A stretch of DNA of 64,000 nucleotides, from NCBI GenBank assembly GCA_944392815.1, contig CALXXY010000001.1, positions 64,001-128,000 of the forward strand, read 5' to 3'. The notes under the pieces were generated by a model that did no database searches, was not told the origin of the DNA, and was given only the letters and a program-made list of their open reading frames with translations. This stretch comes from an uncultured Alphaproteobacteria bacterium. GTDB taxonomy: Bacteria > Pseudomonadota > Alphaproteobacteria > Rs-D84. This document shows, in pieces, positions 10,564 through 48,025 of this stretch. The position numbers were made by a program, and so were the translations under genes. How positions within the stretch are numbered: the stretch's first letter is position 1; each line of letters opens with the position of its first letter.

Positions 10564-10686
10564 AAAAATCCTTTTCCGATTGTCCAGGATACACATATAC
10601 GCGACAAAAATCAAATGTAAAAAGCGTTGCAATCCTGAACATCTGTTATATAGTAATGTGAAATTTAAACAAAGGATATTTGAATT

Positions 10687-11403
10687 ATGATGCGTCCATC
10701 TTTGCGCCAGGCCACACAAATCCGCCCTGTTTCGATGGAAACAGCCGTTAACAAATGGGCCGAAGGGTCATGTTTAATCAAAATCGGCGGAACCCAGGTT
10801 TTATGTACTGCATCGGTGGAATTTAATCAGCCACTGTGGAAACGTTTGCAAAATAAAACTGGCGGTTGGGTGACGGCTGAATACGCCATGATTCCACGCG
10901 CAAACGGTACACGCAAATCGCGCGAGGCATTGTTAAAAGATCACCGCACCGCGGAAATTTCTCGACTGGTTGGGCGGGCGCTGCGCAGCGCGGTTGATAT
11001 GGGAAAACTGGGCAAACACACGATAACTGTCGACTGCGATGTGATTCAGGCCGATGGCGGCACGCGATGCGCCGCAATTACAGGTGGATATGTCGCATTG
11101 GTGTTGGCTGTGCGTTGGCTGATTGAACGTGGACGCATTGCTGAAAATCCTGTACGGGATTATGTTGCCGCGATTTCAGCGGGCATATTTAACGGCGAAT
11201 TAATTTTGGATTTGGATTATGACGAAGATTGCGTCGCAGAAATCGATTCTAATTTCGTGATGGCGGGCAATGGCGATTTGATTGAAATCCAGGCCACTGG
11301 TGAACAGCACCCATTTAATCGCGCCCAAATTGAACAGTTAATGGATATGGCCACCGATGGGTGCAAAAAATTAATCGAATTACAAAAACAAGTATTGGAA
11401 TAA
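10687..11403 (+). CDS. rph: Ribonuclease PH
   Basis: AEGSCLI, GWVTAEYAM, DCDVIQADGGTRCAAITG, LDLDYDED. Confidence 0.96.
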   Translation: MMRPSLRQATQIRPVSMETAVNKWAEGSCLIKIGGTQVLCTASVEFNQPLWKRLQNKTGGWVTAEYAMIPRANGTRKSREALLKDHRTAEISRLVGRALRSAVDMGKLGKHTITVDCDVIQADGGTRCAAITGGYVALVLAVRWLIERGRIAENPVRDYVAAISAGIFNGELILDLDYDEDCVAEIDSNFVMAGNGDLIEIQATGEQHPFNRAQIEQLMDMATDGCKKLIELQKQVLE

Positions 11404-33836: not shown

Positions 33837-34097
33837 TTATTGTATCACTGCGGTTTTTATCAGGGCGACGTCTTCGCGGATTGTGTCGATTTTTATTTGC
33901 AACTGCCCCAGGCCTGTTTCCAATATCGTTGTGCGATTTTCCAACGCTGTCAGGCGGTTGTCCGCGCGGTGCAGTTCATCTATTGATGAATCCTGGCGCG
34001 CGGCCCAATATATTACGCCCGCGATGAATACGATTAAAAACCAACTGTTGCGTAAAAAATCCAACAATCCCATTACACTGTTGGATTGTGATGTCAT
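33837..34097 (-). CDS. Small TM plus coiled-coil protein at end of virion module (holin/XhlA-like)
   Basis: One TM (WFLIVFIAGVIYW) plus heptad tail; coupled to upstream gene. Confidence 0.6.
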   Translation of the reverse strand: MTSQSNSVMGLLDFLRNSWFLIVFIAGVIYWAARQDSSIDELHRADNRLTALENRTTILETGLGQLQIKIDTIREDVALIKTAVIQ

Positions 34098-34291
34098 TAT
34101 TTCCCCCGTTGTATCATGTTTTCAATTTGATGTACCAGTGCACGTTGGGCTTCGATTCCGCGCAGTTCTGCGTCGGTGGCGTTCGGACCCAATGTACGTT
34201 CGATTGTAATTTTGCGCAAATGTTGTAATACCATCGCGCCGGCTGCAGTACTGAAAGTGCGCGCATAATTTTGTTCCAAATCTTTGTTCAT
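34097..34291 (-). CDS. Bbp19-like phage protein downstream of portal
   Basis: TFSTAAGAMVLQHL...AELRGIEAQRALVHQI; position after portal. Confidence 0.7.
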   Translation of the reverse strand: MNKDLEQNYARTFSTAAGAMVLQHLRKITIERTLGPNATDAELRGIEAQRALVHQIENMIQRGK

Positions 34292-35526
34292 AATATATTC
34301 CCCTGGGTCAAAGTTTCTGCCATTGTCATTTTTGTAATCGGTGCGATGTATTTTAATTCTGCGTCGCTGTGCAGTGTGATTTTTTCAATCACGCCACGGC
34401 GCGATAAAATCTGCAGCCCGCGTTCCACCAATGGGTGAATAAACTCGTGCAACAGTCGCCCGTATGTCGCGCCCAGAATTCTGGCCATGTCTGCATTACG
34501 CGCCAGGATTTCTGTGGCGGTCATTTCTTTTTCAGACAGCAATCCCAATCTGTCGGCCAATAATGTGTGACGGATACGATCACGCAAATCAGTCAATATA
34601 ATTTGTGATACATCGAAATTCGCCCCGGACGATAATGGCGTCAGTCCTGATGAACCGACGGCTTTTGGTATGATGGCGCCTGGTGTCAGGTTTATATTAG
34701 ACAAATTTATCACGCCGTCATCGTCGGCCTGCCATATGCCAGACACGGCGATTGTTGCGTTTTTCAAAACCAGTTCCACAACTTTGTTGGCTGTTTTTAT
34801 ATCCGGCAATGCGCGCAGCACTGGGCCACGGCCGTATTGTTCACCACTGGCCACGGACCAGCGAAATATTATGTATGGATTTGTTTCGAATGTGCCGGTT
34901 GCGACAATGTTATTTTCCAATTCGCCGCCGACGTCCAACCATGCTGTAAAATCCGATCCGACCAAACTTTGCACCAGGCGCAACTGTGTTTCTGGGTCTG
35001 ATTTTATTGTATCGCGCAAATTTGATGGTGGCGTCCAATTAGGATATTTTTCCAATACCTGGCGTGCGGACATGGTGGCCGTATGAAATACTGCACCCGG
35101 CAAAATGGCCAGGTCGCGCATAGGAATCGCGGTAAACGAAAACGCAGACGCGGCACCAATCGGATTTTCCGCCATAAACAGGCATGCCGTGCCCAGCACT
35201 ATCAAATCCATATAGCATTGATGGATTGTGGTATAAAAATTAGAATCGTTCAGATTCGCACGCAATGCCGCACAGGCCGCAGTGGCGTCCGGGGAATCCG
35301 CACTTTCGGGCACCAATGATACCCACAGTGATTCTGGTGGCGTCAGCAACGAATAAATAGATGCCGCCAAATTATCGGCTGCGTCCGCGGCGGTGGCATC
35401 GAATACCAATGCTGCGTCGTCATCAGATGTTGGCATTGTATAACGTTGGGCCATGTCCCATCTGTTCAGCCATGGTGTACGCATATCCAATGCGCGACGA
35501 TACATTTGTTGTAAATTTTTTTGCAT
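34288..35526 (-). CDS. Podovirus-type portal / head-tail connector
   Basis: FDATAADAADNLAASI, RWSVASGEQYGRGP, ALPDIKTAN, MTATEI, LGATYGRL. Confidence 0.9.
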   Translation of the reverse strand: MQKNLQQMYRRALDMRTPWLNRWDMAQRYTMPTSDDDAALVFDATAADAADNLAASIYSLLTPPESLWVSLVPESADSPDATAACAALRANLNDSNFYTTIHQCYMDLIVLGTACLFMAENPIGAASAFSFTAIPMRDLAILPGAVFHTATMSARQVLEKYPNWTPPSNLRDTIKSDPETQLRLVQSLVGSDFTAWLDVGGELENNIVATGTFETNPYIIFRWSVASGEQYGRGPVLRALPDIKTANKVVELVLKNATIAVSGIWQADDDGVINLSNINLTPGAIIPKAVGSSGLTPLSSGANFDVSQIILTDLRDRIRHTLLADRLGLLSEKEMTATEILARNADMARILGATYGRLLHEFIHPLVERGLQILSRRGVIEKITLHSDAELKYIAPITKMTMAETLTQGNIL

Positions 35527-35551: not shown

Positions 35552-36400
35552 TTATATTTTGAAATTCGTGTTTGCATTAAAAATTTTTGGGGTGCGCCCA
35601 ATCGGGTGCACTGGCGTTGGAACGGCCGATACAGCGCCCGCGACTGCGTCCAGGCCATCGTCGTGACCAATTGTGCCGCTGGGCGTCCAACCCAGCATTT
35701 CTGCCAATAATGGTGTTGATTGAATACGCGTGTGCGCATGCAGGCGGCCGGACGTTAAAACAGGTTCAATTGCGTCCAGAATTCTGGTTTCTTTTTTCCA
35801 ATGGTTAACCACATTTTGAATCGTTATGGTTATGTTTTTTCGTGCCGACACGTCCCGCATTATTTCCGGCAACGCATTGCCAATGCCGTTTGTTTCTATG
35901 TTTATTCGGCGCATGCCATGGCGCTGCATAAATTCCAGCACCATTTCGCATTGGCGTGCCAGTGGGTGTAATTCGTCGTCTGGCACCAATAAATATACGA
36001 TGTCGTGCACGAATATATGTCGCGTTTTATCATCGCGATATATCAATGCGCATACACTGCCGTCGGAATTTTTACGCCCGGTGGACGGATCCCAATACAT
36101 TGTCGCGCCAGTGATTGTATATTCGCCAATGCGCGCGGTATGCACATTAAAGTCATCGTTGTACATACGCAATGCGTCTGGATCCAATTTCGCCCTGTCG
36201 GGGGCAATAAATTCCAACATCATTTGTGCAGAAAAATATCGCGCCCCGACCGCATTACGCAGTTCGTCTATGCGCGCAGGCGGAAATAATTCCGGCCAGG
36301 CGGGCGTGCCGTCTGGGGAAATTATCGGTATTTTTAATTCACGATATCCCCGCAAAAAAGGCGTTGAAAAACTAAAATTTTTATATACCATATCTGACAT
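35552..36400 (-). CDS. Terminase large subunit, C-terminal nuclease half (start 36400 or 36391)
   Basis: WPELF, FSAQMML, YWDPS, IETNGIG, KETRI, HDDGLDA RNaseH-like motifs. Confidence 0.85.
   Translation of the reverse strand: MSDMVYKNFSFSTPFLRGYRELKIPIISPDGTPAWPELFPPARIDELRNAVGARYFSAQMMLEFIAPDRAKLDPDALRMYNDDFNVHTARIGEYTITGATMYWDPSTGRKNSDGSVCALIYRDDKTRHIFVHDIVYLLVPDDELHPLARQCEMVLEFMQRHGMRRINIETNGIGNALPEIMRDVSARKNITITIQNVVNHWKKETRILDAIEPVLTSGRLHAHTRIQSTPLLAEMLGWTPSGTIGHDDGLDAVAGAVSAVPTPVHPIGRTPKIFNANTNFKI
36360..36368 (+). repeat. 9-bp direct repeat GGCGTTGAA, left copy
   Basis: Identical to 39715-39723; brackets the block interrupting terminase. Confidence 0.5.
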
Positions 36401-37952
36401 GGACTTTACCCCGAAAACATTGCCGAATAATCTGGAGGCCGAACAGGCCGTTCTGGCCGCGGTGTTAATGAACAACCGCGCGTTGGAACGTGTGTCTGAA
36501 TTTCTGCGACCGGAACATTTTTCGCACCCTGCGCACCAGGAAATTTACAAATTGGCCGAACGGCAATTTGCCGCCGGAATACCGTTTGATATCATCACGG
36601 CCAAAAACTATCTGGATCAACAGGGCGTGTTGGAATCTGTGGGTGGCGTGGAATATCTGACGCAATTGGCGTCTGCGGGCGCAACCGTGGTGAACGTCGA
36701 ACAATACGGGCGCATAGTTTATGAAAACGCCATGCGACGCGAATTAATCAACCTGGGGCAATCCATTACCGATGCCGCTTTTGTCGAGGATTTGGATAAT
36801 CCTGTCACTGCACAAATCGAAACGGCCGAACAAAAATTATTTGAAATGGCGTCGACCGGCATTTCTGAACGCGAGGTTGCACCCATATCCACCGCATTAC
36901 AGGACGCATTGAAAGAGGCCGAAATCGCATACAAGGCCGATGGACAACTGTCTGGGTTGACAACTGGGTTGACCGCGTTGGATAAATCCATCAGTGGTCT
37001 GCACCATTCCGATTTGATTATTATTGCCGGTCGTCCCGCAATGGGAAAAACCACGCTGGCGATGAATATCGCGTTTAATGCCGCGAATGCTATTTTATAC
37101 GGTCGCGCCAACGAACGGTACAAAGGCGCCGTGGTGTTTTTCAGTTTGGAAATGTCAAAATCCCAATTGGCGGCGCGTGTGTTATCGTCGCAATCGAAAA
37201 TTCCTGCGTCTGCCATGCGCGAAGGGTCACTGACCGACGAAGATTTCCTGAAAATGTCACAGTATGCCGATGCTATTAGCAAAGTGCCTTTGTACATTGA
37301 TGATACGCCTGGAATGTCTGTGCCGATGTTGCGGACACGCGCGCGTCGTTTGGCACGCAAATGTGGCGGCATTGCGTTAATCGTAATTGACTATTTGCAA
37401 TTGATGACGTCACCCGGTGGCAAAAACAAGGATAATCGTGTCCAGGAATTATCCGAAATCACGCGCGGTCTGAAAATGCTGGCCAAGGAACTGGATGTGC
37501 CTGTTATTGCCCTGTCCCAGTTGTCGCGCAGTGTTGAATCGCGCGATGACAAACGGCCCCAGTTGTCTGATTTGCGTGAATCTGGGTCCATCGAACAGGA
37601 CGCCGACATTGTTATGTTTACATATCGCGAAGAATACTATCTGGAAAATCGCGACCCGTCACAGCGCATTTCCGGCAATGCCAACGAAAAAATTATCGAA
37701 AGTTTCCAAAAACGTTTGGAACGCGCACGTGGCAAAGCCGATGTGATTATCGGGAAAAATCGTCATGGACGGCCTGAAACTGTGCACATGGCATTTTTCG
37801 GCGATTACAGTTTGTTTGACAATCTGGAAGAAACCAATGCCCGCGGCGAAAATGATTTCAATAATCCGACCGAGGGTATGCCTGATGTCGATATGTCTGA
37901 ACAGCCAACGCCGATTGATGCGGACGCCATTCCAGACGATATGCCGCTGTAA
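36399..37952 (+). CDS. dnaB: Replicative DNA helicase
   Basis: PNNLEAEQAVL, AGRPAMGKT, FSLEM, IDYLQL, LSQLSR, DLRESGSIEQDAD, KNRHG. Confidence 0.97.
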   Translation: MDFTPKTLPNNLEAEQAVLAAVLMNNRALERVSEFLRPEHFSHPAHQEIYKLAERQFAAGIPFDIITAKNYLDQQGVLESVGGVEYLTQLASAGATVVNVEQYGRIVYENAMRRELINLGQSITDAAFVEDLDNPVTAQIETAEQKLFEMASTGISEREVAPISTALQDALKEAEIAYKADGQLSGLTTGLTALDKSISGLHHSDLIIIAGRPAMGKTTLAMNIAFNAANAILYGRANERYKGAVVFFSLEMSKSQLAARVLSSQSKIPASAMREGSLTDEDFLKMSQYADAISKVPLYIDDTPGMSVPMLRTRARRLARKCGGIALIVIDYLQLMTSPGGKNKDNRVQELSEITRGLKMLAKELDVPVIALSQLSRSVESRDDKRPQLSDLRESGSIEQDADIVMFTYREEYYLENRDPSQRISGNANEKIIESFQKRLERARGKADVIIGKNRHGRPETVHMAFFGDYSLFDNLEETNARGENDFNNPTEGMPDVDMSEQPTPIDADAIPDDMPL

Positions 37953-38022
37953 ACATTTTATGCTTGCCAAACGCATCTAAATTGACTAAAATTTTTGTCA
38001 AGAAATTCCAAGGAGATTTGCG

Positions 38023-39030
38023 ATGGCCCAAGAAGAAATAATTTTCCCAAATAATATCAGAAATATTCGTTTGGCCAATGGCATGAAAATGACTGAATTG
38101 GCACGCCAGGCAAATTTATCGCTGTCGGCGGTATCCAAAATCGAAAAAGGTGTACGCCGTTTAAATCAAAAACAATTATTGAATATTTGTAATATTTTGG
38201 GTTGCAAATTATCCGATATTTTTATCAAGGAATCTGATGACGTTGCCGGCCAATGGCAAAGCGAAATCAAACGCCGTCTGAATGATAACGAAGACAGTGG
38301 TCTGAAAATTTTTGGCAGCGGGCTGCGCAAAATTCGCCAACAGTCGGGCAAAACTATTGCCCAGGCCGCGGCCGATGCCGGTATGACATTGTCTGTGTAT
38401 CATAAAATCGAGGTCGGCCAGCGCGAAATTTACGAAAACGAAATTGAACCTTTGGCCAAATCGTTTGGATATACTGCTGAATCCATGTTGGATAAAATCG
38501 CGACTTTGTATAAATCTGGCGAATTGAACAAGCAGATTAACAAGGTCAAAGAACGCGTTAAATCCGTATTGGTGCCGGGTAATCCATTGTCTGGAATCGA
38601 TGTGCACAGCAGTTTGTATGGTGCAAAATTATACGACAGCGCACGCAAAAAATTGGTGCCTGTGTTCGGTGCGCCATCGGGCAAAGCAATCGCGTTCAAA
38701 AAATCTGACAAAACAATGATTGTTGCCCCCATGCCGCTGGAGGGTCATTCTGGCATATATGCGATTATCCCGAATTCCAAACGGTTGGGCGGTTTTATCC
38801 CAGAACATGCCTATGTTTTTGCAGACGCCGACACGCCGGCCGCGATTGGTGATTTGGCTGTTTGCATTGATACAGATTTTAATTCGTTGGATTCAAATGA
38901 CACCGCTGTGGCACAAATCGCTGTTGTTCGCACAGATTCGCGGGGCAAAATTTACGGCCAGATTTCTGCGCCCGAAGAAAAAATCGTCGCCCCCACCATG
39001 CACAAGGTTGTCATGATTGTCATGGAATAA
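38023..39030 (+). CDS. Transcriptional regulator with two XRE HTH domains
   Basis: NNIRNIR..ELARQANLSLSAVSKIEKG and LRKIR..AADAGMTLSVYHKIEVG. Confidence 0.85.
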   Translation: MAQEEIIFPNNIRNIRLANGMKMTELARQANLSLSAVSKIEKGVRRLNQKQLLNICNILGCKLSDIFIKESDDVAGQWQSEIKRRLNDNEDSGLKIFGSGLRKIRQQSGKTIAQAAADAGMTLSVYHKIEVGQREIYENEIEPLAKSFGYTAESMLDKIATLYKSGELNKQINKVKERVKSVLVPGNPLSGIDVHSSLYGAKLYDSARKKLVPVFGAPSGKAIAFKKSDKTMIVAPMPLEGHSGIYAIIPNSKRLGGFIPEHAYVFADADTPAAIGDLAVCIDTDFNSLDSNDTAVAQIAVVRTDSRGKIYGQISAPEEKIVAPTMHKVVMIVME

Positions 39031-39057
39031 TTCCATAACCCCAGGGAGAGAGCACAC

Positions 39058-39732
39058 ATGAAAGCCAAAGCCAGCACAGTTGCACAGAAATTGTTAAATC
39101 TGTATCGCCAGGAACATGTTATTTTCGGCGGCTGGGCCGCGGTTAATCGCGTTTTTGTGGACGAAGCCACCGATGACGTAATACATGAATTGCGCAATTT
39201 GCCAACCGGGAAAAATCTGGTGCGGCATATTGAAAATTTACGCAGTGGCAAAACCCCCATGGATTCAATCGAACGCGAATTGTTGCCGTACGATGGATTG
39301 ATGGACGAAACTGTGGCAACGGTGCCTTTGACGGCCGCAGAATGGGCGGAATTGGAATCCGGTATTGATGCGTTCACAACCGACCAAAATGGACTGGACG
39401 AAATTCAACAATTAAATGTTGTAAAAAAATTCGGCGACCAATGGTTGGTGGCTATACGTGCTGCATTAAATGCCCGGCCTGATTTGTTGGAAAAATGGTC
39501 GGTTATCAACAAAACATATCGCGCGTATTATTTGTGGAAAGTGGCCAGTGATATGTTAACCCAGCCGCTGTCTGAACGTGCGCGCGCGCAATTACAGGCC
39601 GACATGCCCGAATACGAAACGTATTTGCCAATGTTTGGTGATGCCGGCAATGAATTGTTGGAAAAACTGCGTTCGTTTATTTCCACAACAATCCCCGATG
39701 AAACGAACGACGATGGCGTTGAATCCATTTAA
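39058..39732 (+). CDS. Hypothetical protein
   Basis: 224-aa ORF with GGGAGAG RBS; stop overlaps terminase N-half stop. Confidence 0.75.
   Translation: MKAKASTVAQKLLNLYRQEHVIFGGWAAVNRVFVDEATDDVIHELRNLPTGKNLVRHIENLRSGKTPMDSIERELLPYDGLMDETVATVPLTAAEWAELESGIDAFTTDQNGLDEIQQLNVVKKFGDQWLVAIRAALNARPDLLEKWSVINKTYRAYYLWKVASDMLTQPLSERARAQLQADMPEYETYLPMFGDAGNELLEKLRSFISTTIPDETNDDGVESI
39715..39723 (+). repeat. 9-bp direct repeat GGCGTTGAA, right copy
   Basis: Identical to 36360-36368. Confidence 0.5.
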
Positions 39733-40331
39733 TCGTCTGTTGTTCTGTAAATAGTATCCAATGTGTGCGGTGTGCCGATATAAATCATTGTACCGGTCGG
39801 CGACAAAATAAAATCCAATTCGCGCAGACGTTCACGCAATGTTTCCCGTTTTTGCGATGTGTTGCTGGTGTTGGGAACCTCGACATCGTCACATATAATC
39901 AAATCCGATCGCAGACCAGTAATGTTGCCGTGAATGCCCTGGCATATGACAGACGGTTCACGAATGCCAACCGGGCGATTTACGGTTATACGGCCACTGG
40001 CCCATTCTTTTTTTACGTCCGGGATTAAATCGGCACACATTGGGTGATTTTCCAATATGTGCCGAATATGCGACACCATACGTGACGCCAGGCCGTTTTC
40101 CGCAGACAGGATTAAAATCCTGGTGCTGGGGCGCATATGCAACACACATGCTGCAAAAATGCCAACAACTGTGGATTTGCCAGAATGCCTGAACGCCATC
40201 AGCAATCCACGATGCGGTGCGTCATTTAACACCGACACCAAAAATTCCATGATTTTTTTGTGGTGCGCCGGTGTGGTTAATCCCAAAACTTGGTTCCATG
40301 CGTCCAGGAAATTATAAAATTCGGCCAGCAT
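39729..40331 (-). CDS. Terminase large subunit, N-terminal ATPase half
   Basis: Walker A AFRHSGKST, ITGLRSD, Walker B LIICDDVE, coupling motif YIGTPH. Confidence 0.88.
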   Translation of the reverse strand: MLAEFYNFLDAWNQVLGLTTPAHHKKIMEFLVSVLNDAPHRGLLMAFRHSGKSTVVGIFAACVLHMRPSTRILILSAENGLASRMVSHIRHILENHPMCADLIPDVKKEWASGRITVNRPVGIREPSVICQGIHGNITGLRSDLIICDDVEVPNTSNTSQKRETLRERLRELDFILSPTGTMIYIGTPHTLDTIYRTTDD

Positions 40332-40336
40332 ATAAT

Positions 40337-40684
40337 TTAACCCAACAAATCGTCAAATTTATCCAATACCATTTGCAACAAATTTGGACGTGTGGCCCGA
40401 ATTTGTTTTAATTTTTCTGTGTTTGATTTACGTTTTTCGTCGTACGGTTTGGCGGTTTCTGATTTCAATCGCGCCAATACTGCACTGGTACTCATACTGC
40501 GGCCAGACGCCCCTGACGCACCGTATTTGGCACGTTGGGTTGCCAGTGTTTTTTTGACCAGATTCGTTTTTTCACGTGCGTCGGACGCCATGTCCGCCAA
40601 TATTTTTTGACGTTCATTTTCGGCCTGTTTTTTGGAATCGTTATATCCCAATACGGTCGTGACATCTGATACCAATTGTCCCAT
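40337..40684 (-). CDS. Putative internal virion/ejection protein (T7 gp14-like position)
   Basis: LATQRAKYGASG motif, small helical protein after tail tube B. Confidence 0.6.
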   Translation of the reverse strand: MGQLVSDVTTVLGYNDSKKQAENERQKILADMASDAREKTNLVKKTLATQRAKYGASGASGRSMSTSAVLARLKSETAKPYDEKRKSNTEKLKQIRATRPNLLQMVLDKFDDLLG

Positions 40685-40705: not shown

Positions 40706-42421
40706 TTATATTGTGTAATTTCCGTATACGCCAACAGACAAAATCGTTGTTGGCAACTGTTCGTTGCTGGATATTGTCCACGGCGCAGTTATGCAATTTT
40801 GCTGGGTTCCCAGTATATTGACTGATACGTCACCACTGTATCCAGGGGCGGCGGCGTCATATATATTATCTGGGAACGGGGCACGCATGCCGTTTATGAA
40901 CAAAGTTTTTGTATCCAGCGTACGCGCCACTATTTTTCTGATACGCAATTTACGCGCGTTATGGCCAGATGCCCGCACAGGCAACGCTGATGCTGTATAT
41001 GAAAAATCATATTGCGACGCATCAGATAATGCTGTATCGGAAAAAGTTTCCAAATAACACGTGTCGCCACGCGCAACAACCACGTATGTTTTGCCCGCTA
41101 TGGTGGCCACTGATTTAAATGTGCCGTCGGTTTTATATCGCGCCCATGCAGAAATGCCCAGCGCGGAATTTTGATTCAGTACCGCCATATTGCCGTCTGT
41201 CATTACAACAAACAATTGACGCGTGTTTTCGTTATACGATATGTCCGTGGGCGTGTTCATTAAATGTTTTGCCTGGGTACATAAATCACGCGCATTGTAA
41301 TTTTCACCCAATGCGTCCAGCGTTAATTCGCGAATGTCCTGTTCGGTGGCGGAAATAAATACTGTGGCACCTTCGATTTTTTGCGGCGGCAAATAACGCG
41401 TGGCAACGCTGCCGACTGATGTGTGTTGTTTGATTTCAATTGACGATGGGGTCAAAGGTTTGCTGGATATCGCCCATTCGCCTGAATTAGTCAAAATTTG
41501 CAAATTGTCACTGCTGACCAATGTGCAGATTTGTTGGCGCTGTTGCGATAATAATGTGACGAAAATAGATTCGTCGTCCAGGCCCGTGCCAACATTAAAA
41601 TTATTATACTGGCCCACCCGCGACGCCCATATACCACTGGGCCACGATGGGGTTCCGCCGAAAATCAATCTGTCTTGGTGATATGTGACACTGCACGGCC
41701 AACCGCGACGGTCGCTGAATGCGGATTCGTACCAATCTGTGACGGGGTCGGACGGCAAATTATATTGCGAATTTGTATACGCGTATACTACAGTCGGACT
41801 GACGTATTCCGTGATTCGCCACTGATTATTTAACAACAACAGGTACCCACCAACAGAATTTTGTGTCCAAAACGCTTTGTTGGTGGTAAATGTTGCCGTG
41901 TTATTGCCCGCGCTGTTTGCGGTCACGGTAATATTAATGGTCGCTGCGTCATCGAATTTCATGAATGGCATGTTTAATGTCATATCTGAATCATTGCGTT
42001 TGAATTCGAACGGAACCAATTCGAAATTCACAGATCCCATTTGTAAAATACAGGGCTGATATTTTGGGTGAACGAATATCATCGTGCCATTTCGCTGGGC
42101 ATATTGAATTTTCGGATAATCATCAAAATCCCATTCGAATAATAAATCACATATAACCGTTGCACCGTCGTATATCAACATATGCCCATCAGTCAATGCC
42201 AATATATAATTTTCTGTTTCACTGACTGAAAATGGTATCAGGCGCGCAGACGATGTTAATGTGTCAACTGTGGCCAAACCGCGGCGCCGGCGCAGTCCAC
42301 CACCAGCGATAACGTCCATATTTTCCAAATACGACAATCCGTTTAAATTATCGCGTGCGTAAAATTCCGGGGAAACTTCGCCGTCTGCGAACGAGTTTTG
42401 GGTTTTAATAAAATCTGTCAT
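40706..42421 (-). CDS. Tail tubular protein B / nozzle (podovirus-type)
   Basis: QNSFADGEVSP, GGLRRRRG, RLIPFS, GWPCSVTYHQDRLIFGG. Confidence 0.8.
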   Translation of the reverse strand: MTDFIKTQNSFADGEVSPEFYARDNLNGLSYLENMDVIAGGGLRRRRGLATVDTLTSSARLIPFSVSETENYILALTDGHMLIYDGATVICDLLFEWDFDDYPKIQYAQRNGTMIFVHPKYQPCILQMGSVNFELVPFEFKRNDSDMTLNMPFMKFDDAATINITVTANSAGNNTATFTTNKAFWTQNSVGGYLLLLNNQWRITEYVSPTVVYAYTNSQYNLPSDPVTDWYESAFSDRRGWPCSVTYHQDRLIFGGTPSWPSGIWASRVGQYNNFNVGTGLDDESIFVTLLSQQRQQICTLVSSDNLQILTNSGEWAISSKPLTPSSIEIKQHTSVGSVATRYLPPQKIEGATVFISATEQDIRELTLDALGENYNARDLCTQAKHLMNTPTDISYNENTRQLFVVMTDGNMAVLNQNSALGISAWARYKTDGTFKSVATIAGKTYVVVARGDTCYLETFSDTALSDASQYDFSYTASALPVRASGHNARKLRIRKIVARTLDTKTLFINGMRAPFPDNIYDAAAPGYSGDVSVNILGTQQNCITAPWTISSNEQLPTTILSVGVYGNYTI

Positions 42422-42436
42422 GTTGTACCCCCGATA

Positions 42437-42958
42437 TTAAAATCGAACGTTTATCAGTGAAAAATTTTCTATATTTTCATGGGCGGCCGACGATGCGCTG
42501 TCTATGAATTTCGCAGATTGTAATTCTGTTTCATACAAAGCCGCCAGCATGCGAAACACGTTTTGGTCGCCTGTTAAAGGAATGCAAAATTCCATTGCCA
42601 ATTTTGTTGCCGCCAAAGACGTAAAATATCCCGGAAATTTATCCGGCGCGACGCGGACTGTGGCGTTTATAGTAATATTTTCCGATGGCGATATTATTTC
42701 GTTGCCGATAATTTCACCACTGCATTTTAATATGCGCAAACATTCCGCCGGAATTATAAAATTTCCATCGCTGTTTTTGTTCAGTTTGAATTTTCGTGTG
42801 GCAAATCGCCATGGGTGCATGGCCAGCAATGTATCCACCACAGAATCATACAAAGTGCGCGACAATTGCGCAGCCGGTGTATCGTCTGTTAATGACTGGA
42901 TCGGCCGTTCCCCCAATTTCAGCAATGCCAAAGAACACAAATCTATTTTCGTTTGCAT
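42437..42958 (-). CDS. Tail tubular protein A / adaptor
   Basis: IDLCSLALLKLGERPIQSL, LLAMHPWRFA, PAECLR. Confidence 0.8.
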   Translation of the reverse strand: MQTKIDLCSLALLKLGERPIQSLTDDTPAAQLSRTLYDSVVDTLLAMHPWRFATRKFKLNKNSDGNFIIPAECLRILKCSGEIIGNEIISPSENITINATVRVAPDKFPGYFTSLAATKLAMEFCIPLTGDQNVFRMLAALYETELQSAKFIDSASSAAHENIENFSLINVRF

Positions 42959-42981
42959 AAATTCCCCCATAGGTCACAAAT

Positions 42982-43279: not shown

Positions 43280-44098
43280 TTAATCTTTGCATTTGATACG
43301 AACGATACCAGTGTCGTCAATCATGACTGCGCCCTGGGACATGCTGTTGCTGATGAAATGAGCCGCCCGTTCGCCGTGCCATGAAATATCTGTTTTTACT
43401 TCCTGGCCACAGGCATGACCGATGCTGGTTGCGTGATACATGAAACAGTCACGCTTGGACGTGTCCGACAACGGTAAATCGTTGTACAGAACCCATGTTA
43501 TGCCCAACCACTGTTTGGACGCCCCGCCAGATATCAATGGCAGATTGTCGCCCACGTAATCGCCGGATACAAATTCATCTATCCCCAGCAATTCATTCCA
43601 TTGGTGCACGCCAATGACTGCAAATCTGCGGCCATCATCGGGAACATCGTTTTCATTTAACACTTCCAATGCGGACAAAATTAAATCTTTGGTCAGACCG
43701 GTTGAATAATCGCCCACAGATGTTGTGGCGGACGACATTGCGCCAACAATCAATTCGTCTGTTTTGCGCCCCAGTGCATACGCACCAGCAGACGCAACAA
43801 CACGACGTTCGTCAATGTTGGTTTTTAATTCGTCCAATGCGTCAACCCAATCACCCGCATAATAGTCCTGCAAAATACATTCCACAGGTTCGTGATTCAA
43901 ATTCATCACAGGCACAATACCGTGACGCGATTTTGTGCTGGCGGTGCCACGACCAACCTTTTGGAAAGTGGTGGACGCACCGACAACCCCAGATTTGCTG
44001 CGTACCGTGGCACGCAGTTTTGTGCCCATTTGCTGATATGCCAAATGGACGTCGGCTTCGAACTGTTTGACAAAGACCTGATCAACTGAAACAGACAT
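43280..44098 (-). CDS. Major capsid protein
   Basis: FVKQFEADVHLAYQQMGTKLR, DWVDALDELK, AYALGRKTDELI, NDVPDDGR, GAVMID. Confidence 0.87.
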   Translation of the reverse strand: MSVSVDQVFVKQFEADVHLAYQQMGTKLRATVRSKSGVVGASTTFQKVGRGTASTKSRHGIVPVMNLNHEPVECILQDYYAGDWVDALDELKTNIDERRVVASAGAYALGRKTDELIVGAMSSATTSVGDYSTGLTKDLILSALEVLNENDVPDDGRRFAVIGVHQWNELLGIDEFVSGDYVGDNLPLISGGASKQWLGITWVLYNDLPLSDTSKRDCFMYHATSIGHACGQEVKTDISWHGERAAHFISNSMSQGAVMIDDTGIVRIKCKD

Positions 44099-44295
44099 TA
44101 TTAATTTCCTTTTGCTGTAAAAAATAAAAAAAGACGTAATAAAAAATTACGTCGGTAAATTTTATGATTATGGTTGTGCACATAAACATATGCGCCATAT
44201 ACATAAAACAAATTGGGTCCGTTATCGGATTGTCCAAAAAAATATTCAATCAGACGAAATAAAATCTGATTGAATATTTTATGCGGGGGCAATTA

Positions 44296-44320
44296 AAAAT
44301 CCCCGGAATTCCGGGGATTA
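44296..44320 (-). terminator. Hairpin terminator after histone-like gene
   Basis: aatccccgg-aatt-ccggggatt with T-run on minus strand. Confidence 0.65.
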
Positions 44321-44322
44321 TA

Positions 44323-44676
44323 TTATTTTTTCTTTGCACATGCTTTTTTTACCGGTTTTTTCGCAACAACTTTTTTTGCGACCGGTTTTTTCGCTGCTAC
44401 TTTTTTAACAGCAACTTTTTTTGCAGGTGCTTTTTTAGCAACAACTTTTTTTGCAACTGGTTTTTTCACCGCTGCTTTTTTAGCAACTGGTTTTTTCGCT
44501 GCAACTGGTTTTTTAACTGCTACTTTTTTAGCAACAGGTTTTTTTGCAACAACTTTTTTTGCTGCTGGTTTTTTGGCAAGTGCTTTTTTAGCAACTGGTT
44601 TCTTTGCAACCGGTTTGGCAGCCGGCTTTTTCGCGGCGGCTTTCTTTGCGGCTGGTTTCAAGAATGTGAATGCCAT
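44323..44676 (-). CDS. Histone H1-like Lys/Ala/Val/Pro-rich DNA-binding protein (Hc2-like)
   Basis: ~20 [10 protein letters not shown] pentapeptide repeats; AAGGAG RBS before MAFTFLK. Confidence 0.85.
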
Positions 44677-44780
44677 TCTTCTCTCCTTTTTATTTTTTGG
44701 ATAGAACAAATTTCTTTTGTTCTTACTTTTATTTTATATGAAAGAAAAAAAATAGTAAAGAAGAAAGTGCATTTTTTTCA

Positions 44781-45437
44781 TCACGAATATAATTTTTTAA
44801 ATCCATTTTCAATTTTGCGAACGTATTCTGGATCCATATCGCGCCAATATTTTGGATCGCGCATCATGCGACGCAGTTCATCATCTGTTAAATTTTTTTG
44901 TGGCGCATCATTGGTTTCAATCGATGGTTCCATCGTTTGCATCATCGCGTAAATGCTGCGGATTCCCTGGGGTGTAGCGCACAGAGTTTCAAACGCATCA
45001 CGTGGTAAATATTTTTCGCCGAACGAATTTATTGCATTTAATGCGTCACACATTTTTTGTTCATCGCCGAAAAAATTTTTTAATTCACTGATTGCATTTG
45101 TTTCATTTTGCACATCAAATAATTCTGATAACACAGGTGTTAAAAATTCTTCTGCGATACGATAAATTTGTTCAACCTGGGACGAAGTTAATCCAATTTC
45201 AAAAAATTTTTCGCGCAACGATTCGTCATCAAACAATTCATTTGTCGGATATTCAGACGAATCATTTGGCACACCAATTGCACGATTAAATTTGGCACGT
45301 GTGTCTGCATCGCTGTCTGCGTTTGGCACAGAAACCATCGTTCCGATTTTCTTTTCCAATTCAGAATATGATTTTAATAATGCGGCTGTGTTTAATGTAC
45401 CGTCTTTATTCAGAAATTTTTCTGGAATGTTTTCCAT
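44781..45437 (-). CDS. Capsid assembly/scaffolding protein
   Basis: IPEKF..LLKSYSELEKK, C-terminal MMRDPKYWRD..F.KLY; upstream of capsid. Confidence 0.78.
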   Translation of the reverse strand: MENIPEKFLNKDGTLNTAALLKSYSELEKKIGTMVSVPNADSDADTRAKFNRAIGVPNDSSEYPTNELFDDESLREKFFEIGLTSSQVEQIYRIAEEFLTPVLSELFDVQNETNAISELKNFFGDEQKMCDALNAINSFGEKYLPRDAFETLCATPQGIRSIYAMMQTMEPSIETNDAPQKNLTDDELRRMMRDPKYWRDMDPEYVRKIENGFKKLYS

Positions 45438-45627
45438 TTGTGTTCCTTTTGTTTTCGCTGGATTTACGCAGAAAATAAATTCCGCCCAATGTAAATATTG
45501 ATTGCAGCATTGTGAATATATCTGTATCACCAACCAAATACGCGCCCAGTGCTGATAATATTCCAATGCTTGATATTATGTATGTTCTGTGTCCGGATAA
45601 AAATCCGCCACTGATAATTTTTTTCAT
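45406..45627 (-). CDS. Holin-like small membrane protein
   Basis: GHRTYI + two TM segments + basic tail; next to hydrolase. Confidence 0.6.
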   Translation of the reverse strand: MKKIISGGFLSGHRTYIISSIGILSALGAYLVGDTDIFTMLQSIFTLGGIYFLRKSSENKRNTNGKHSRKISE

Positions 45628-45644: not shown

Positions 45645-46055
45645 TTACAGATAAAACAACAATCCATCTATGTCGGCGATATACCCACGCGCAGTCGCCC
45701 AATCTGGTATCAATCCATCATGGTGAAAACGCGTCGCGCCATTGCAACAATCCGGCAACAGGCCATGCAACATTCTGCGTGCCACGCGCACACACATTTG
45801 AAATCCGGAATCTGTCGACGTCACAGACAATAATTCATTATCCGGTGATGCAGGATTTAACACTGGGAATAAATCTGCGTCCAATGCGACGTCCACAACA
45901 CATCTGTGCGTGGCCACCGCGGAATTATAAATCATGGACGTTAACGCTTCGACCACACGCAATGATACAGCGTGTGTTTCTGCATATACTGTACGCGCAA
46001 TTTTATACGCCACAGATTGCAATTCATCTGTGTTTTTAATTAATGTCAATTGCAT
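45645..46055 (-). CDS. SleB/Hydrolase_2-like cell wall hydrolase (divergent)
   Basis: IARTVYAE, GATRFH, PDWA, LLFY motifs. Confidence 0.7.
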   Translation of the reverse strand: MQLTLIKNTDELQSVAYKIARTVYAETHAVSLRVVEALTSMIYNSAVATHRCVVDVALDADLFPVLNPASPDNELLSVTSTDSGFQMCVRVARRMLHGLLPDCCNGATRFHHDGLIPDWATARGYIADIDGLLFYL

Positions 46056-46168
46056 GTGCTGAATGCCCCTGTGATTGTTGAAATAAAAAATGGGCCGCAA
46101 CAAAGTGCGACCCAAAATAAAAATCCGCCGGTTTCCCGCGGACATACTTTTACCTGTTCATGCGTTCT

Positions 46169-47625: not shown

Positions 47626-47833
47626 TTTCTCTCTCCTGTGGTTAAATTTGGGGCATATGCTCGCTGTGGGACATATGTCTGGTATTGATTTTATTCCAGT
47701 TCACACCCACAGACAACAAGGACCATTTCCTATTTCCGCAGAAATCCGGGGTTTCTGTTCCTAAAAATAACACTAAAAAATAAATTTGACAAAAATACTT
47801 GACAAATAGCAATTTATGTATTACATTTCGATT

Positions 47834-48025
47834 CGTCAAAGGGGGCAACCCCTGCGGCTGGGTTGAAAAACCCATATTGGGGTTCAGGGATTCAGACTCC
47901 CTCCTACATTCTCTCTCCTCTGGACTCTGGACCCCAAATTCAGTTTAGAATGCCCATTTCTTTTTCTCCTTTCCTTCCTTTCGGGGCATTCGGAAACACC
48001 GGCGGGCAACCGCCGGCGTTTTTTG
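47834..48025 (+). ncRNA. Candidate sRNA with CU-rich anti-Shine-Dalgarno loops
   Basis: TTGACA-17-TACATT promoter (47799-47827), tandem hairpins with pyrimidine loops, GC-rich terminator with T-run. Confidence 0.65.

What the first reader, a model, noticed from the sequence alone, without database searches (positions are those of the whole stretch)
35552..40331. Large terminase split into separate ATPase and nuclease genes by a dnaB operon
Seen: 39729-40331 encodes only the ATPase domain (Walker A FRHSGKST, Walker B ICDDVE) and ends just after GTPH..TIY. 35552-36400 encodes only the linker and RNaseH-like nuclease (PFLRGY..WPELF, WDPS, ETNG, HDDGLDA). Between them, on the opposite strand, lie dnaB, a double-XRE regulator and a hypothetical gene. 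The break falls at the inter-domain linker and both halves keep their catalytic residues. The nuclease-half ATG (36398-36400) overlaps the dnaB ATG (36399-36401), and the dnaB promoter lies inside its first codons. Inference: a two-chain packaging motor whose nuclease expression is antagonistic to, or coupled with, the essential replicative helicase.
Basis: partly seen in the sequence, partly recalled or inferred. Interest (0 to 1): 0.9.

Follow-up and report, generated by a model that had tools for sequence, protein, structure and literature searches.

The report
Anciently split terminase flanking host dnaB
A tiny-genome gut bacterium keeps a tamed short-tailed-phage particle gene set whose DNA-packaging enzyme is made as two separate, well-preserved proteins, with the cell's only replication helicase gene sitting between the two genes.

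Summary
terL-N (39729-40331, -) and terL-C (35552-36400, -) are two intact genes of a T7-type large terminase. They are separated by dnaB, a double-HTH regulator and an unknown gene on the + strand.

It is not a misassembly. The same layout is in 73 of 80 Candidatus Enterousia loci (the other 7 are cut by contig ends), including a circular long-read genome.

dnaB did not cause the split. Throughout the order Rs-D84 (237 of 251 genomes) the terminase is two ORFs broken at the same residue. In sister families a small-RNA gene fills the gap, not dnaB. Other Alphaproteobacteria carry an intact ~495-aa orthologue in the same gene module.

The break is not at the ATPase/nuclease linker. It lies inside the ATPase fold, after the GTPH motif. 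A complex model (0.87, best control 0.00) has the C-half's first strand complete the ATPase sheet.

Both halves are under purifying selection (dN/dS 0.11 and 0.16-0.18), and every catalytic residue is invariant.

The dnaB promoter does lie in terL-C's first 15 codons, where synonymous sites are frozen. Antagonism with dnaB is untested, and dnaB's orientation differs in sister genera.

The scan has reported this split at least ten times in other Enterousia genomes. I found no paper describing it.

The parts
39729..40331 (-). terL-N: 200-aa N-half of a T7-type large terminase. It carries Walker A (GKS), Walker B plus the catalytic Glu (DDVE) and the GTPH motif, and stops 5 codons after TIY.
   Evidence: NF033889 scores 223.5 bits (cut-off 150) over model positions 1-191. 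It aligns to PDB 8dgc_E residues 29-215. G51 K52 S53, D148 D149 E151 and G186-H189 are invariant in 33 sequences.
35552..36400 (-). terL-C: 282-aa C-half (279 aa if started at Met4, 36391). Residues ~14-66 are the last part of the ATPase domain. The RNase H-like nuclease runs from ~78-100 onward.
   Evidence: PF22530 7e-9. Best fold match is 8dgc_E at E 3.8e-11. W103 D104 P105, E169 N171 G172 and D247 D248 D251 are invariant in 32 sequences.
36399..37952 (+). dnaB, the only replicative helicase gene found in this genome. It is host-type and orthologous to a dnaB located elsewhere in sister families.
36356..36394 (+). dnaB core promoter (-35 TTGAAA, -10 TACCAT at 36364-36391), embedded in codons 3-15 of terL-C on the other strand.
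   Evidence: promoter scan. (motif conserved in 73 loci). (synonymous-codon identity 0.88-1.00 for codons 3-15, against a gene mean of 0.47).
38023..39030 (+). Regulator with two XRE-type HTH domains plus a C-terminal domain. It is a core gene of the order.
39058..39732 (+). Unknown 224-aa protein. It travels with the regulator, and its stop codon shares TTAA with the terL-N stop.
   Evidence: no family in Pfam, PHROGs or NCBIfam.
34288..35526 (-). T7-type portal (head-tail connector), directly downstream of terL-C. The likely start is Met72 of the long ORF.
   Evidence: PF12236 1.1e-78, match starts at residue 74..
40337..40684 (-). 115-aa protein directly upstream of terL-N. It is a small-terminase candidate by position only.
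   Evidence: no family. (intact elements have a 95-111-aa ORF in the same place). This assignment is inference.
40706..42421 (-). Tail tubular protein B-like.
   Evidence: phrog_376, 8.6e-86.
42437..42970 (-). Tail tubular protein A-like.
   Evidence: phrog_394, 8.8e-33.
43280..44098 (-). Major capsid protein.
   Evidence: PF19821, 6.6e-71.
44781..45566 (-). T7-type scaffold (capsid assembly) protein. The true start is probably downstream of 45566.
   Evidence: PF05396, 5.1e-11..
45645..46145 (-). 166-aa protein with a weak endolysin match. In intact elements its homologue follows TerL.
   Evidence: phrog_938, 1.7e-4..
33837..34291 (-). Two small genes (64 and 86 aa) that follow the portal throughout the order.
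47834..48025 (+). Small-RNA gene with two hairpins whose CU-rich loops never vary. Its homologue fills the terL-N/terL-C gap in sister lineages.

Best explanation
The two genes encode one large terminase in two chains.

Shown:
- An intact T7-type TerL of about 495 aa still exists in many other Alphaproteobacteria, in the same particle module (portal, scaffold, capsid, tubular A/B, TerL, lysin).
- In every Rs-D84 family where I read the junction, the gene is broken at the same point, after the GTPH..TIY motif, with a clean stop codon and a new start codon.
- dnaB is absent from the gap in sister families.
- Three different layouts with dnaB in the gap exist within the Enterousia family.
- In Enterousia the dnaB promoter occupies terL-C's first 15 codons.

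Inferred:
- The gene underwent fission in the common ancestor of the order Rs-D84.
- The N-chain carries strands 1-4 of the ATPase core, with Walker A, Walker B and the coupling motif.
- The C-chain supplies the last core strand (the ..LKIPI.. segment), the lid helices and the RNase H-like nuclease. The ATPase would then be complete only when the chains associate.
- The pair serves a vertically inherited, immobile podovirus-type particle system, most likely like a gene transfer agent (GTA).
- Host genes later moved into the gap: first dnaB, then the regulator pair, followed by an inversion of dnaB.
- Transcription of terL-C and the portal gene has to run head-on through the promoter of an essential gene.
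For: Conservation:
- 73 of 80 genus loci show the identical layout, with a gap of 3295-3413 nt. The other 7 are cut by contig ends. A circular long-read genome (L075) is among the 73.
- The exact N-half protein is on 183 contigs.
- Order-wide, 237 of 251 genomes and 24 of 26 genera match. Every listed N-half row ends at query position ~199-205 in an open frame of 198-251 aa. Best E-values are only 1e-40 to 1e-76, against 1e-84 to 1e-195 for single-ORF hits elsewhere in the class.
- Sister families have a stop right after TIY, a spacer, and then an ATG with its own Shine-Dalgarno sequence.

Ancestry:
- Intact 450-510-aa relatives are the top hits of the N-half profile, and they continue into C-half-like sequence.
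- These sit in the same gene module.

Selection:
- dN/dS is 0.11 for the N-half (76 sequences, none with stops) and 0.16-0.18 for the C-half (74 sequences, none with stops). For comparison, lipB is 0.16 and dnaB 0.07.
- All catalytic residues are invariant.

Binding model:
- The complex model scores 0.87; the best of 3 controls scores 0.00. The mark was reached by 58 of 80 solved complexes and 2 of 110 mismatched pairs. The runs agree in at least 93% of contacts, and the partner's pLDDT is at least 79.
- The interface joins C-half residues 14-26 to N-half residues 41-48 in a parallel register.

Host genes and promoter:
- dnaB and the regulator are unlinked and lie elsewhere in 5 sister genomes.
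- Three dnaB-in-gap layouts exist within the family.
- The promoter is embedded in terL-C.
Against: - There is no protein, particle or clean RNA evidence. The one metatranscriptome that holds the locus gives only 2-4x contigs, and DNA carry-over is not excluded.
- The complex score may reflect likeness to solved single-chain TerL structures (8DGC, 4BIJ), so it shows likeness and not binding.
- One sister genome (G029) keeps the N-half next to the portal gene, with no C-half found.
- G358 has no C-half or portal at the usual place.
- 14 of 251 genomes, some 97-98% complete, lack the terminase. Two loci carry a deletion that removes tubB, p115 and the 5' end of terL-N. The system is therefore dispensable.
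- No conserved promoter for terL-C shows up as synonymous constraint in the first 40 codons of dnaB.
- dS is close to saturation (median ~1.3), so the dN/dS values are rough.
Confidence: 0.7

Rival explanations
1. The halves are rejoined after transcription or translation, by a group I/II intron, trans-splicing, an intein or translational bypass, as in other interrupted terL genes.
For: Interrupted terL genes that are restored by splicing are common in phages. Jug phages are one example (PMC12880540, passages read). An intein is reported in mycobacteriophage Momo TerL (PMC4472892). Candidate bypassing has been proposed in Streptomyces phages (PMC10732093).
Against: - Rfam finds no intron in four sister-family loci at E up to 1.
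- The N-half ends in a stop inside sequence that still aligns with intact TerL. The C-half has its own ATG and Shine-Dalgarno sequence.
- The two chains together (200 + 282 aa) match intact relatives of 481-505 aa, which leaves no room for intein halves.
- Pfam shows no Hint/intein domain.
- In Enterousia the gap holds three opposite-strand genes. In sister families it holds an sRNA gene with its own promoter and terminator.
Confidence: 0.04
2. This is a decaying prophage remnant, and the two ORFs are pseudogene fragments that happen to remain open.
For: The cluster lacks recognisable fibre, internal-core, replication and integration genes in the ORFs I scanned. Some lineages have lost it or deleted parts of it.
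Against: - None of 76 N-half and none of 74 C-half sequences has a stop.
- dN/dS is 0.11-0.18, like housekeeping genes.
- Catalytic residues are invariant across families at 31-52% identity.
- The break point is conserved across an order.
- Protein distances co-vary with the flanking host gene lipB (rho 0.47-0.69).
Confidence: 0.04
3. The halves have separate jobs. The N-half would be a stand-alone packaging or other ATPase, and the C-half a stand-alone nuclease or resolvase, with no stable heterodimer.
For: G029 keeps the N-half beside the portal gene with no C-half detected. In G358 the C-half is not at the locus. The C-half fold also resembles RuvC-type resolvases.
Against: - The N-half would lack the last core strand of its ATPase fold. 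The model places that strand of the C-half against the Walker A strand with low error.
- The C-half's N-terminal FL.G(F/Y)..LKIP segment has no nuclease role, yet it is nearly invariant.
- Both halves co-occur in 36 of the 38 relatives that have the N-half.
Confidence: 0.12
4. Assembly artefact, or a recent insertion private to this genome.
For: The genome is a metagenome-assembled draft in 18 contigs.
Against: The same junctions are in 73 of 80 loci from many studies, in a circular long-read chromosome, on 183 contigs, and in contigs of another study's run that bridge the terL-N side of the junction.
Confidence: 0.01

Closest known systems
T7-type large terminase (T7 gp19, PDB 4BIJ; PhiV-1 TerL, PDB 8DGC; NCBIfam NF033889; PHROG 38)
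   Same: The sequence family, the order of motifs, the ATPase-then-nuclease architecture, and the neighbourhood of portal, scaffold, capsid and tubular proteins A/B.
   Different: It is two polypeptides instead of one. The break lies inside the ATPase fold. The total length is about 100 aa shorter than the 582-586-aa phage enzymes. It is encoded in a bacterial chromosome with host genes between the halves.
Intact ~495-aa TerL of the small podovirus-like module found in other Alphaproteobacteria and in 17-22-kb IMG/VR contigs (P0004 and relatives)
   Same: 46-58% identity to the N-half. The C-terminal ..F.I ending is the same. The module has the same gene set: portal, p64, scaffold, capsid, tubular A/B, TerL, lysin.
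   Different: It is a single ORF, with a 10-17-residue link where Rs-D84 has a stop codon, a gap and a start codon. Its distribution is patchy: 46 of 301 class genomes, counting G000 and two other Enterousia genomes. Whether those elements are prophages or are also domesticated was not examined.
Gene transfer agents, especially the podovirus-like FpGTA of Faecalibacterium (PMC12946183; abstract and passages read)
   Same: A compact head, packaging and short-tail gene set with no replication genes. It is near-ubiquitous in a gut lineage and inherited with the chromosome.
   Different: FpGTA has experimental particles, proteomics and ~9-kb packaged host DNA, and a single terL. Here nothing has been shown experimentally, terL is in two genes, and the sequence families were not compared.
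terL genes interrupted by group I introns, inteins or homing-endonuclease genes (Jug phages, PMC12880540; Momo, PMC4472892)
   Same: A terminase reading frame interrupted by foreign DNA.
   Different: Those are repaired by RNA or protein splicing to give one chain. Here no intron or intein was found, and each half has its own translation signals.

Membership tests
T7-type large terminase (NF033889 / PHROG 38) | Scores above the curated family cut-off | tested here: inconclusive
   N-half scores 223.5 bits against a cut-off of 150 (met). C-half alone scores 110.1 bits (below the cut-off). The two cover model positions 1-191 and 231-500. The intact relative P0004 scores 398 bits.
T7-type large terminase (NF033889 / PHROG 38) | ASCE ATPase motifs: Walker A, Walker B with catalytic Glu, coupling motif | tested here: met
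   G51 K52 S53, D148 D149 E151 and G186 T187 P188 H189 are invariant in 33 sequences from several families. The motif names are recalled from general knowledge.
T7-type large terminase (NF033889 / PHROG 38) | C-terminal RNase H-like nuclease with acidic metal-binding residues | tested here: met
   D104, E169, D247, D248 and D251 are invariant in 32 sequences. PF22530 7e-9. The AF2 model matches 8dgc_E at E 3.8e-11 and many terminase nuclease domains.
T7-type large terminase (NF033889 / PHROG 38) | Single polypeptide that carries both domains | tested here: not met
   There are two ORFs with a stop and a start in every Rs-D84 genome shown.
Gene transfer agent (viriform) | Phage-derived particle genes inherited vertically under purifying selection, at a fixed chromosomal place | tested here: met
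   Same neighbours (recG, lipB) and same order in 73 of 80 loci. dN/dS is 0.07-0.30 for the 15 genes tested. Distances co-vary with lipB. Found in 237 of 251 genomes of the order.
Gene transfer agent (viriform) | No replication, integration or excision genes; cannot move as a unit | tested here: inconclusive
   None appeared among the ORFs scanned between 33.8 and 46.2 kb. The sole dnaB lies inside the cluster. The rest of the genome was not scanned for integrases or missing tail genes.
Gene transfer agent (viriform) | Particles are produced and package random host DNA | not testable with these tools
   This needs particle purification and sequencing of protected DNA.
Intron- or intein-interrupted terL | A self-splicing intron or intein between the halves | tested here: not met
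   No intron family at E up to 1 in L048-L051. No Hint domain. The chain lengths add up to the intact length.
CcsR / 'CCUCCUCCC-motif' small RNAs (Rfam RF02791), for the RNA in the gap of sister lineages | Reaches the Rfam gathering score | tested here: not met
   13.1 bits against a gathering score of 65.3. The resemblance is in architecture only: hairpins with CU-rich loops.

The most novel reading that the evidence does not exclude
The terminase is an obligate heterodimer whose ATPase core is completed in trans. It arose when a small-RNA gene landed in a surface loop of terL in the ancestor of Rs-D84. In Enterousia the promoter of the only replicative helicase now sits inside the first 15 codons of the nuclease half. 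Late-gene transcription into terL-C and the portal gene, and dnaB transcription, would then exclude each other. That would make a built-in switch between chromosome replication and DNA packaging in cells committed to releasing podovirus-type gene-transfer particles.
Probability: 0.12. Interest if true: 0.85.

Novelty: new variant of a known kind. Interest (0 to 1): 0.6.

Why it matters
Large terminases are treated as single-chain motors. A natural two-chain version has survived the radiation of a whole bacterial order, with the cut inside the ATPase fold. It offers a ready-made split system for asking how the ATPase core, lid and nuclease communicate during packaging.

It also marks the particle cluster as domesticated and not a dead prophage. 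The only dnaB lies inside it, so it cannot leave as a phage genome. This adds a second candidate podovirus-type gene transfer agent in gut bacteria, this time in genomes under 1 Mb, where every retained gene is presumably paid for.

An essential promoter embedded in a phage-derived coding sequence is a clean case of dual constraint on DNA, and it can be tested directly.

Tried and rejected
Intron search. Rfam at E up to 1 on four sister loci found only tRNAs and chance-level hits.

PDB sequence search with the C-half found nothing at E up to 1. The fold search did find matches.

RNA evidence.
- One search found 12 runs, all kept as contigs.
- A true metatranscriptome (X5, share 0.19) has 2-4x contigs over parts of the portal gene, the terL-C/dnaB junction, dnaB, the regulator, terL-N and tubular A/B.
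- Neither strand nor level can be read from these, and DNA carry-over is not excluded. This is no evidence of expression or of silence.
- X12 held next to nothing.

Promoter scan. The region is not enriched in promoter-like sites (36 found, against 29.8 +/- 4.8 in shuffles). Only the site before dnaB gains weight, and that comes from conservation.

Search for a terL-C promoter, taken as synonymous constraint inside dnaB. There is no block in the first 40 codons. The best window, at codons 409-412 (z = 3.2), is unexplained.

Sulfitobacter phage PhiGT1 prophage family (PMC10386132, passages read). Its terminase is P22-like, so it is not related.

Bacillus phage Slash (PMC3861416) and the jumbo-phage overview (PMC7824862) do not describe a split terminase.

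G225 first looked like a second split. It is a frameshift: the halves are in frames 0 and 1, with a 25-nt gap.

In-frame stops in the scaffold, portal and lysin matches all lie in the first ~45 residues of over-long query ORFs. They are not pseudogenes.

Claims that something is not in print rest on searches and the passages read. The Enterousia genome paper PMC12306168 has no occurrence of phage, terminase, capsid, prophage or gene transfer agent.

Full report
WHAT IS THERE

The window is G000:C1:64001-128000 of a 927-kb, 96.8%-complete genome. Relatives are labelled Candidatus Enterousia. This is an uncultured gut alphaproteobacterium of the GTDB order Rs-D84, whose members all have reduced genomes (PMC12306168, passages).

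On the minus strand, between recG and lipB, lies a compact T7-like particle gene set:
- a weak endolysin-like gene
- scaffold (PF05396)
- capsid (PF19821)
- tubular proteins A and B
- a 115-aa gene
- terL-N
- terL-C
- portal (PF12236)
- two small genes

Between terL-N (39729-40331) and terL-C (35552-36400) lie three + strand genes:
- dnaB (36399-37952), the only dnaB found in the genome
- a regulator with two XRE-type HTH domains (38023-39030)
- an unknown 224-aa gene (39058-39732)

Both junctions have zero length. The start codons of terL-C and dnaB share CATG. The stop codons of terL-N and the unknown gene share TTAA.

IT IS REAL AND OLD

Of 80 loci fetched with the capsid protein from one genome per species, 73 show the same order and strands, with 3295-3413 nt between the halves. 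The other 7 end at a contig edge before terL-C. One of the 73 is a circular 958,618-bp long-read chromosome. The exact N-half protein is recorded on 183 contigs from three sources.

In a draw of 41 relatives, the N-half was found in 38 and the C-half in 36. In every case the N-half sits in an open frame of about 200-240 aa.

In a draw of 251 genomes of the order, I searched with an intact relative as query. 237 genomes and 24 of 26 genera matched. Most genomes gave two separate matches. Every listed N-half row ended at query residue ~199-205. Best E-values were 1e-40 to 1e-76 (150 of 468 rows were listed). Single-ORF hits elsewhere in the class reach 1e-84 to 1e-195. I therefore saw no intact terL in Rs-D84.

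THE SPLIT PREDATES THE dnaB INSERT

In five sister-family loci the N-half ORF stops within 1-5 codons after GTPH..(T/S)IY. An AT-rich spacer of 174-550 nt follows. The C-half then starts with its own ATG, often behind a good Shine-Dalgarno sequence, a few residues before the conserved FL.G(F/Y)..LKIP segment.

In those genomes dnaB and the regulator are elsewhere, and they are not linked to each other. In one further family the portal gene lies between the halves.

Inside the Enterousia family I found four layouts:
- halves adjacent, with a 516-nt spacer (L176)
- terL-N, dnaB, terL-C, all on one strand (L172)
- terL-N, then the unknown gene and the regulator reversed, then dnaB and terL-C forward (L173)
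- the Enterousia layout, with all three genes reversed (L177 and the genus)

The simplest history is one fission in the ancestor of the order, later arrival of dnaB and then the regulator pair, and then an inversion. The order of these later steps is inferred, not shown.

WHERE IT CAME FROM

A profile of 33 N-halves, searched against 1.84 billion representative proteins, finds intact proteins of 450-510 aa as its best hits. Their sequences run from the N-half motifs, through a 10-17-residue link, into FL.(G/E/D)F..L.IP and on to a C-terminus like that of terL-C.

With one of them (P0004) as query, 46 of 301 evenly drawn alphaproteobacterial genomes match; G000 and two other Enterousia genomes are among the 46. 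Almost all of the rest match as one ORF of about 490-500 aa. Twelve IMG/VR contigs also match, several of them 17-22 kb long.

In those loci the gene order is portal, small gene, scaffold, capsid, tubular A, tubular B, 1-6 kb of other genes, TerL, lysin-like gene. The Rs-D84 cluster is thus a rearranged, slimmed derivative of a module that still has a one-piece terminase.

The nearest isolated phages are distant:
- T7-like Pseudomonas phages, 36-37% identity for the N-half
- a Pelagibacter phage, 43% identity for the capsid

WHERE THE CUT FALLS

The N-half aligns to residues 29-215 of the 586-aa PhiV-1 terminase (8dgc_E) and to residues 18-210 of a 582-aa Pseudomonas phage TerL. The nuclease part of the C-half (residues 101-258) aligns to residues 364-531 of that phage protein. 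C-half residues 1-100 therefore correspond to the last ~150 residues of the phage ATPase domain.

Pfam's N-terminal terminase model is only covered to position 115 of 215 by the N-half match. NF033889 places the cut between model positions 191 and 231.

The AF2 model of the C-half (pLDDT 83.9) has a disordered start, two helices at 41-60, and the nuclease sheet from residue 78. Its best structural match is 8dgc_E, followed by many terminase nuclease domains and RuvC.

In the complex model the contacts with least error run 41:19/20, 43:21/22, 45:23/24, 47:25/26 (N-half:C-half). That is a parallel strand pairing between the strand before Walker A and the ..LKIPI.. segment. The N-half tail (187-199) lies beside it.

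From general knowledge of ASCE ATPases (strand order 5-1-4-3-2; recalled, not tested), this is strand 5 supplied in trans. The cut is in a variable surface loop inside the ATPase domain.

DO THE HALVES WORK?

Selection:
- Pairwise Nei-Gojobori dN/dS, over pairs with dS 0.1-1.5, is 0.11 for the N-half (76 sequences) and 0.16-0.18 for the C-half (74 sequences). No sequence has an internal stop.
- For comparison: 0.07 for capsid and dnaB, 0.08 for the regulator, 0.16 for lipB.
- dS is high (median ~1.3), so these values are rough.

Conserved residues:
- Across families at 45-52% (N-half) and 30-36% (C-half) identity, Walker A, Walker B with its Glu, GTPH and the five acidic nuclease residues never change.

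Predicted binding:
- The complex prediction scored 0.88, 0.87 and 0.87, against 0.00 for the best of three controls.
- The mark was reached by 58 of 80 solved complexes and 2 of 110 mismatched pairs. The runs agree in at least 93% of contacts, and the partner's pLDDT is at least 79.
- Single-chain TerL structures are solved, so this pass may come from likeness. It shows that the two chains can be laid onto the TerL fold. It does not show that they bind.

Vertical descent:
- Protein distances of both halves co-vary with those of the flanking host gene lipB (Spearman 0.47 and 0.69; dnaB against lipB is 0.68; 59 loci; the pairs are not independent).

THE dnaB PROMOTER INSIDE terL-C

Upstream of dnaB, all 73 loci and the window share a motif with -35 TTGAAA and a -10 like TA(C/T)(C/T)AT.
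- In 51 loci the two start codons overlap. The -10 element is then about 7 nt from the dnaB ATG, which suggests a leaderless or nearly leaderless dnaB message. This is inference.
- In 22 loci there are 14, 17 or 32 extra bases carrying an AAGGA-type ribosome site.

Synonymous-codon identity in terL-C is 0.88-1.00 for codons 3-15 and drops to about 0.45 afterwards. The gene mean is 0.47, and 8-codon windows reach z = 4.3. This is direct evidence that these 40 bases serve two masters.

The first 40 codons of dnaB show no such block. Where terL-C and the portal gene get their transcription is therefore open. terL-N and the unknown gene converge with overlapping stops and no room for a terminator. 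Read-through from the late operon, antisense to the three host genes, is possible but unshown. The co-directional layouts in two sister genera show it is not an ancestral requirement.

A SMALL RNA IN THE ANCESTRAL GAP

The spacers of the sister lineages are not empty. Each has a near-consensus promoter (TTGACA, 17 nt, TAnnnT), followed by one or two hairpins with ~25-30-nt CU-rich loops and a terminator, just before the C-half's ribosome site.

The same element is single-copy in this genome at window 47834-48025 (+), 1.7 kb beyond the cluster. It is present in 66 of 80 genus loci at the same relative place. In 33 aligned species both loops are invariant, while the stems change in a compensatory way.

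I built a covariance model from those 33 sequences and searched with it:
- It finds the spacer of L176 (81.5 bits, E 4.7e-18), L051 (38 bits, 2.6e-7) and L048 (25 bits, 4.9e-4).
- It gives weak, non-significant hits (E 0.1-0.6) just downstream of terL-N in six more loci.
- It finds nothing in six loci that have an intact TerL.

Rfam's CcsR1 family, which it resembles in build, scores only 13.1 bits against a gathering score of 65.3. The ancestral layout was probably terL-N, sRNA, terL-C. Whether the RNA gene caused the fission or moved in afterwards cannot be told.

WHAT THE SYSTEM IS

The cluster is immobile, since the only dnaB is inside it. It is inherited with the chromosome, under selection, and nearly universal in the order. 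It is also dispensable:
- 14 of 251 genomes lack the terminase, among them genomes 97-98% complete and a single-contig genome rated 91% complete.
- Two loci carry a deletion of tubular B, the 115-aa gene and the 5' end of terL-N.

This is the signature of a gene-transfer-agent-like particle system. The closest described case is the podovirus-like FpGTA of Faecalibacterium, for which particles and ~9-kb packaged host DNA were shown (PMC12946183, abstract and passages). Here, particle production and DNA packaging are inferred only.

EARLIER NOTES OF THIS SCAN

After my own analysis I found that the scan had already reported this split in at least ten other Enterousia genomes, with the same main verdict, and had noted the cluster as a GTA candidate on this stretch. 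One of those notes gave me the FpGTA paper.

As far as the few lines shown of those notes allow me to tell, this report adds:
- the position of the cut inside the ATPase fold
- the intact orthologues and their module
- the alternative dnaB layouts in sister genera
- the synonymous-site proof of the embedded promoter
- the sRNA in the ancestral gap

LITERATURE

Searches found no description of this element, of a stably two-gene terminase in a cellular lineage, or of phage-like genes in Rs-D84. Known interrupted terL genes are repaired by introns or inteins, or possibly by bypassing. Supplements were closed.

Noticed in passing
window 47799-48025 (+): A single-copy small-RNA gene. It has a promoter (TTGACA-17-TACATT), two hairpins with invariant CU-rich (anti-Shine-Dalgarno-like) loops, compensatory stem changes across 33 species, and a terminator. 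Rfam CcsR1 scores only 13.1 bits. Its homologue lies between terL-N and terL-C in sister lineages (L176, L051, L048).
   Followed up: partly
L141-L170 (other Alphaproteobacteria; IMG/VR contigs of 17-22 kb): A compact podovirus-like module (portal, scaffold, capsid, tubular A/B, intact ~495-aa TerL, lysin) matches in 46 of 301 evenly drawn alphaproteobacterial genomes of 0.9-6.5 Mb (three of them Enterousia, with the split form). I did not examine whether these are small prophages or a wider family of domesticated particles.
   Followed up: partly
L089 and L119 (genus loci): Two species lack tubular protein B and the 115-aa gene, and have a 5'-altered or truncated terL-N (146 aa in L119). The rest of the cluster is still present. 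This looks like recent loss of function.
   Followed up: no
P0043 (210 aa; on a 1.47-Mb contig): An N-half-like protein with a different amino-acid make-up ends shortly after the same TIY motif. It may be an independent cut at the same loop in another lineage.
   Followed up: no
L165 (G225:C20), locus 9564-10944: TerL of an unrelated alphaproteobacterium is in two frames with a 25-nt gap. This is a frameshift (error, pseudogene or recoding), not a clean fission.
   Followed up: partly
window 44281-44952 (+): A 223-aa ORF lies antisense to the 3' end of the scaffold gene. It has translated matches of 30-68% identity in the relatives' loci. A two-way terminator hairpin sits at 44298-44319. It may be a real gene or a shadow of the conserved scaffold frame.
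   Followed up: no
window 36389-36400 (-): Public gene calls start terL-C mostly at Met4 (279 aa on 85 contigs) and rarely at Met1 (282 aa on 6 contigs). The true start decides whether the two start codons overlap in this species.
   Followed up: partly
L172 (G386:C5), locus 9790-10070: In the genus where dnaB is co-directional with the halves, the dnaB/terL-C spacer holds a tandem direct repeat of ~40 nt, each copy with a hairpin.
   Followed up: no
window 37623-37634 region (dnaB codons 409-412): This is the strongest synonymous-site conservation inside dnaB (z = 3.2). It is unexplained, and could be codon bias at a conserved motif or an embedded signal.
   Followed up: no
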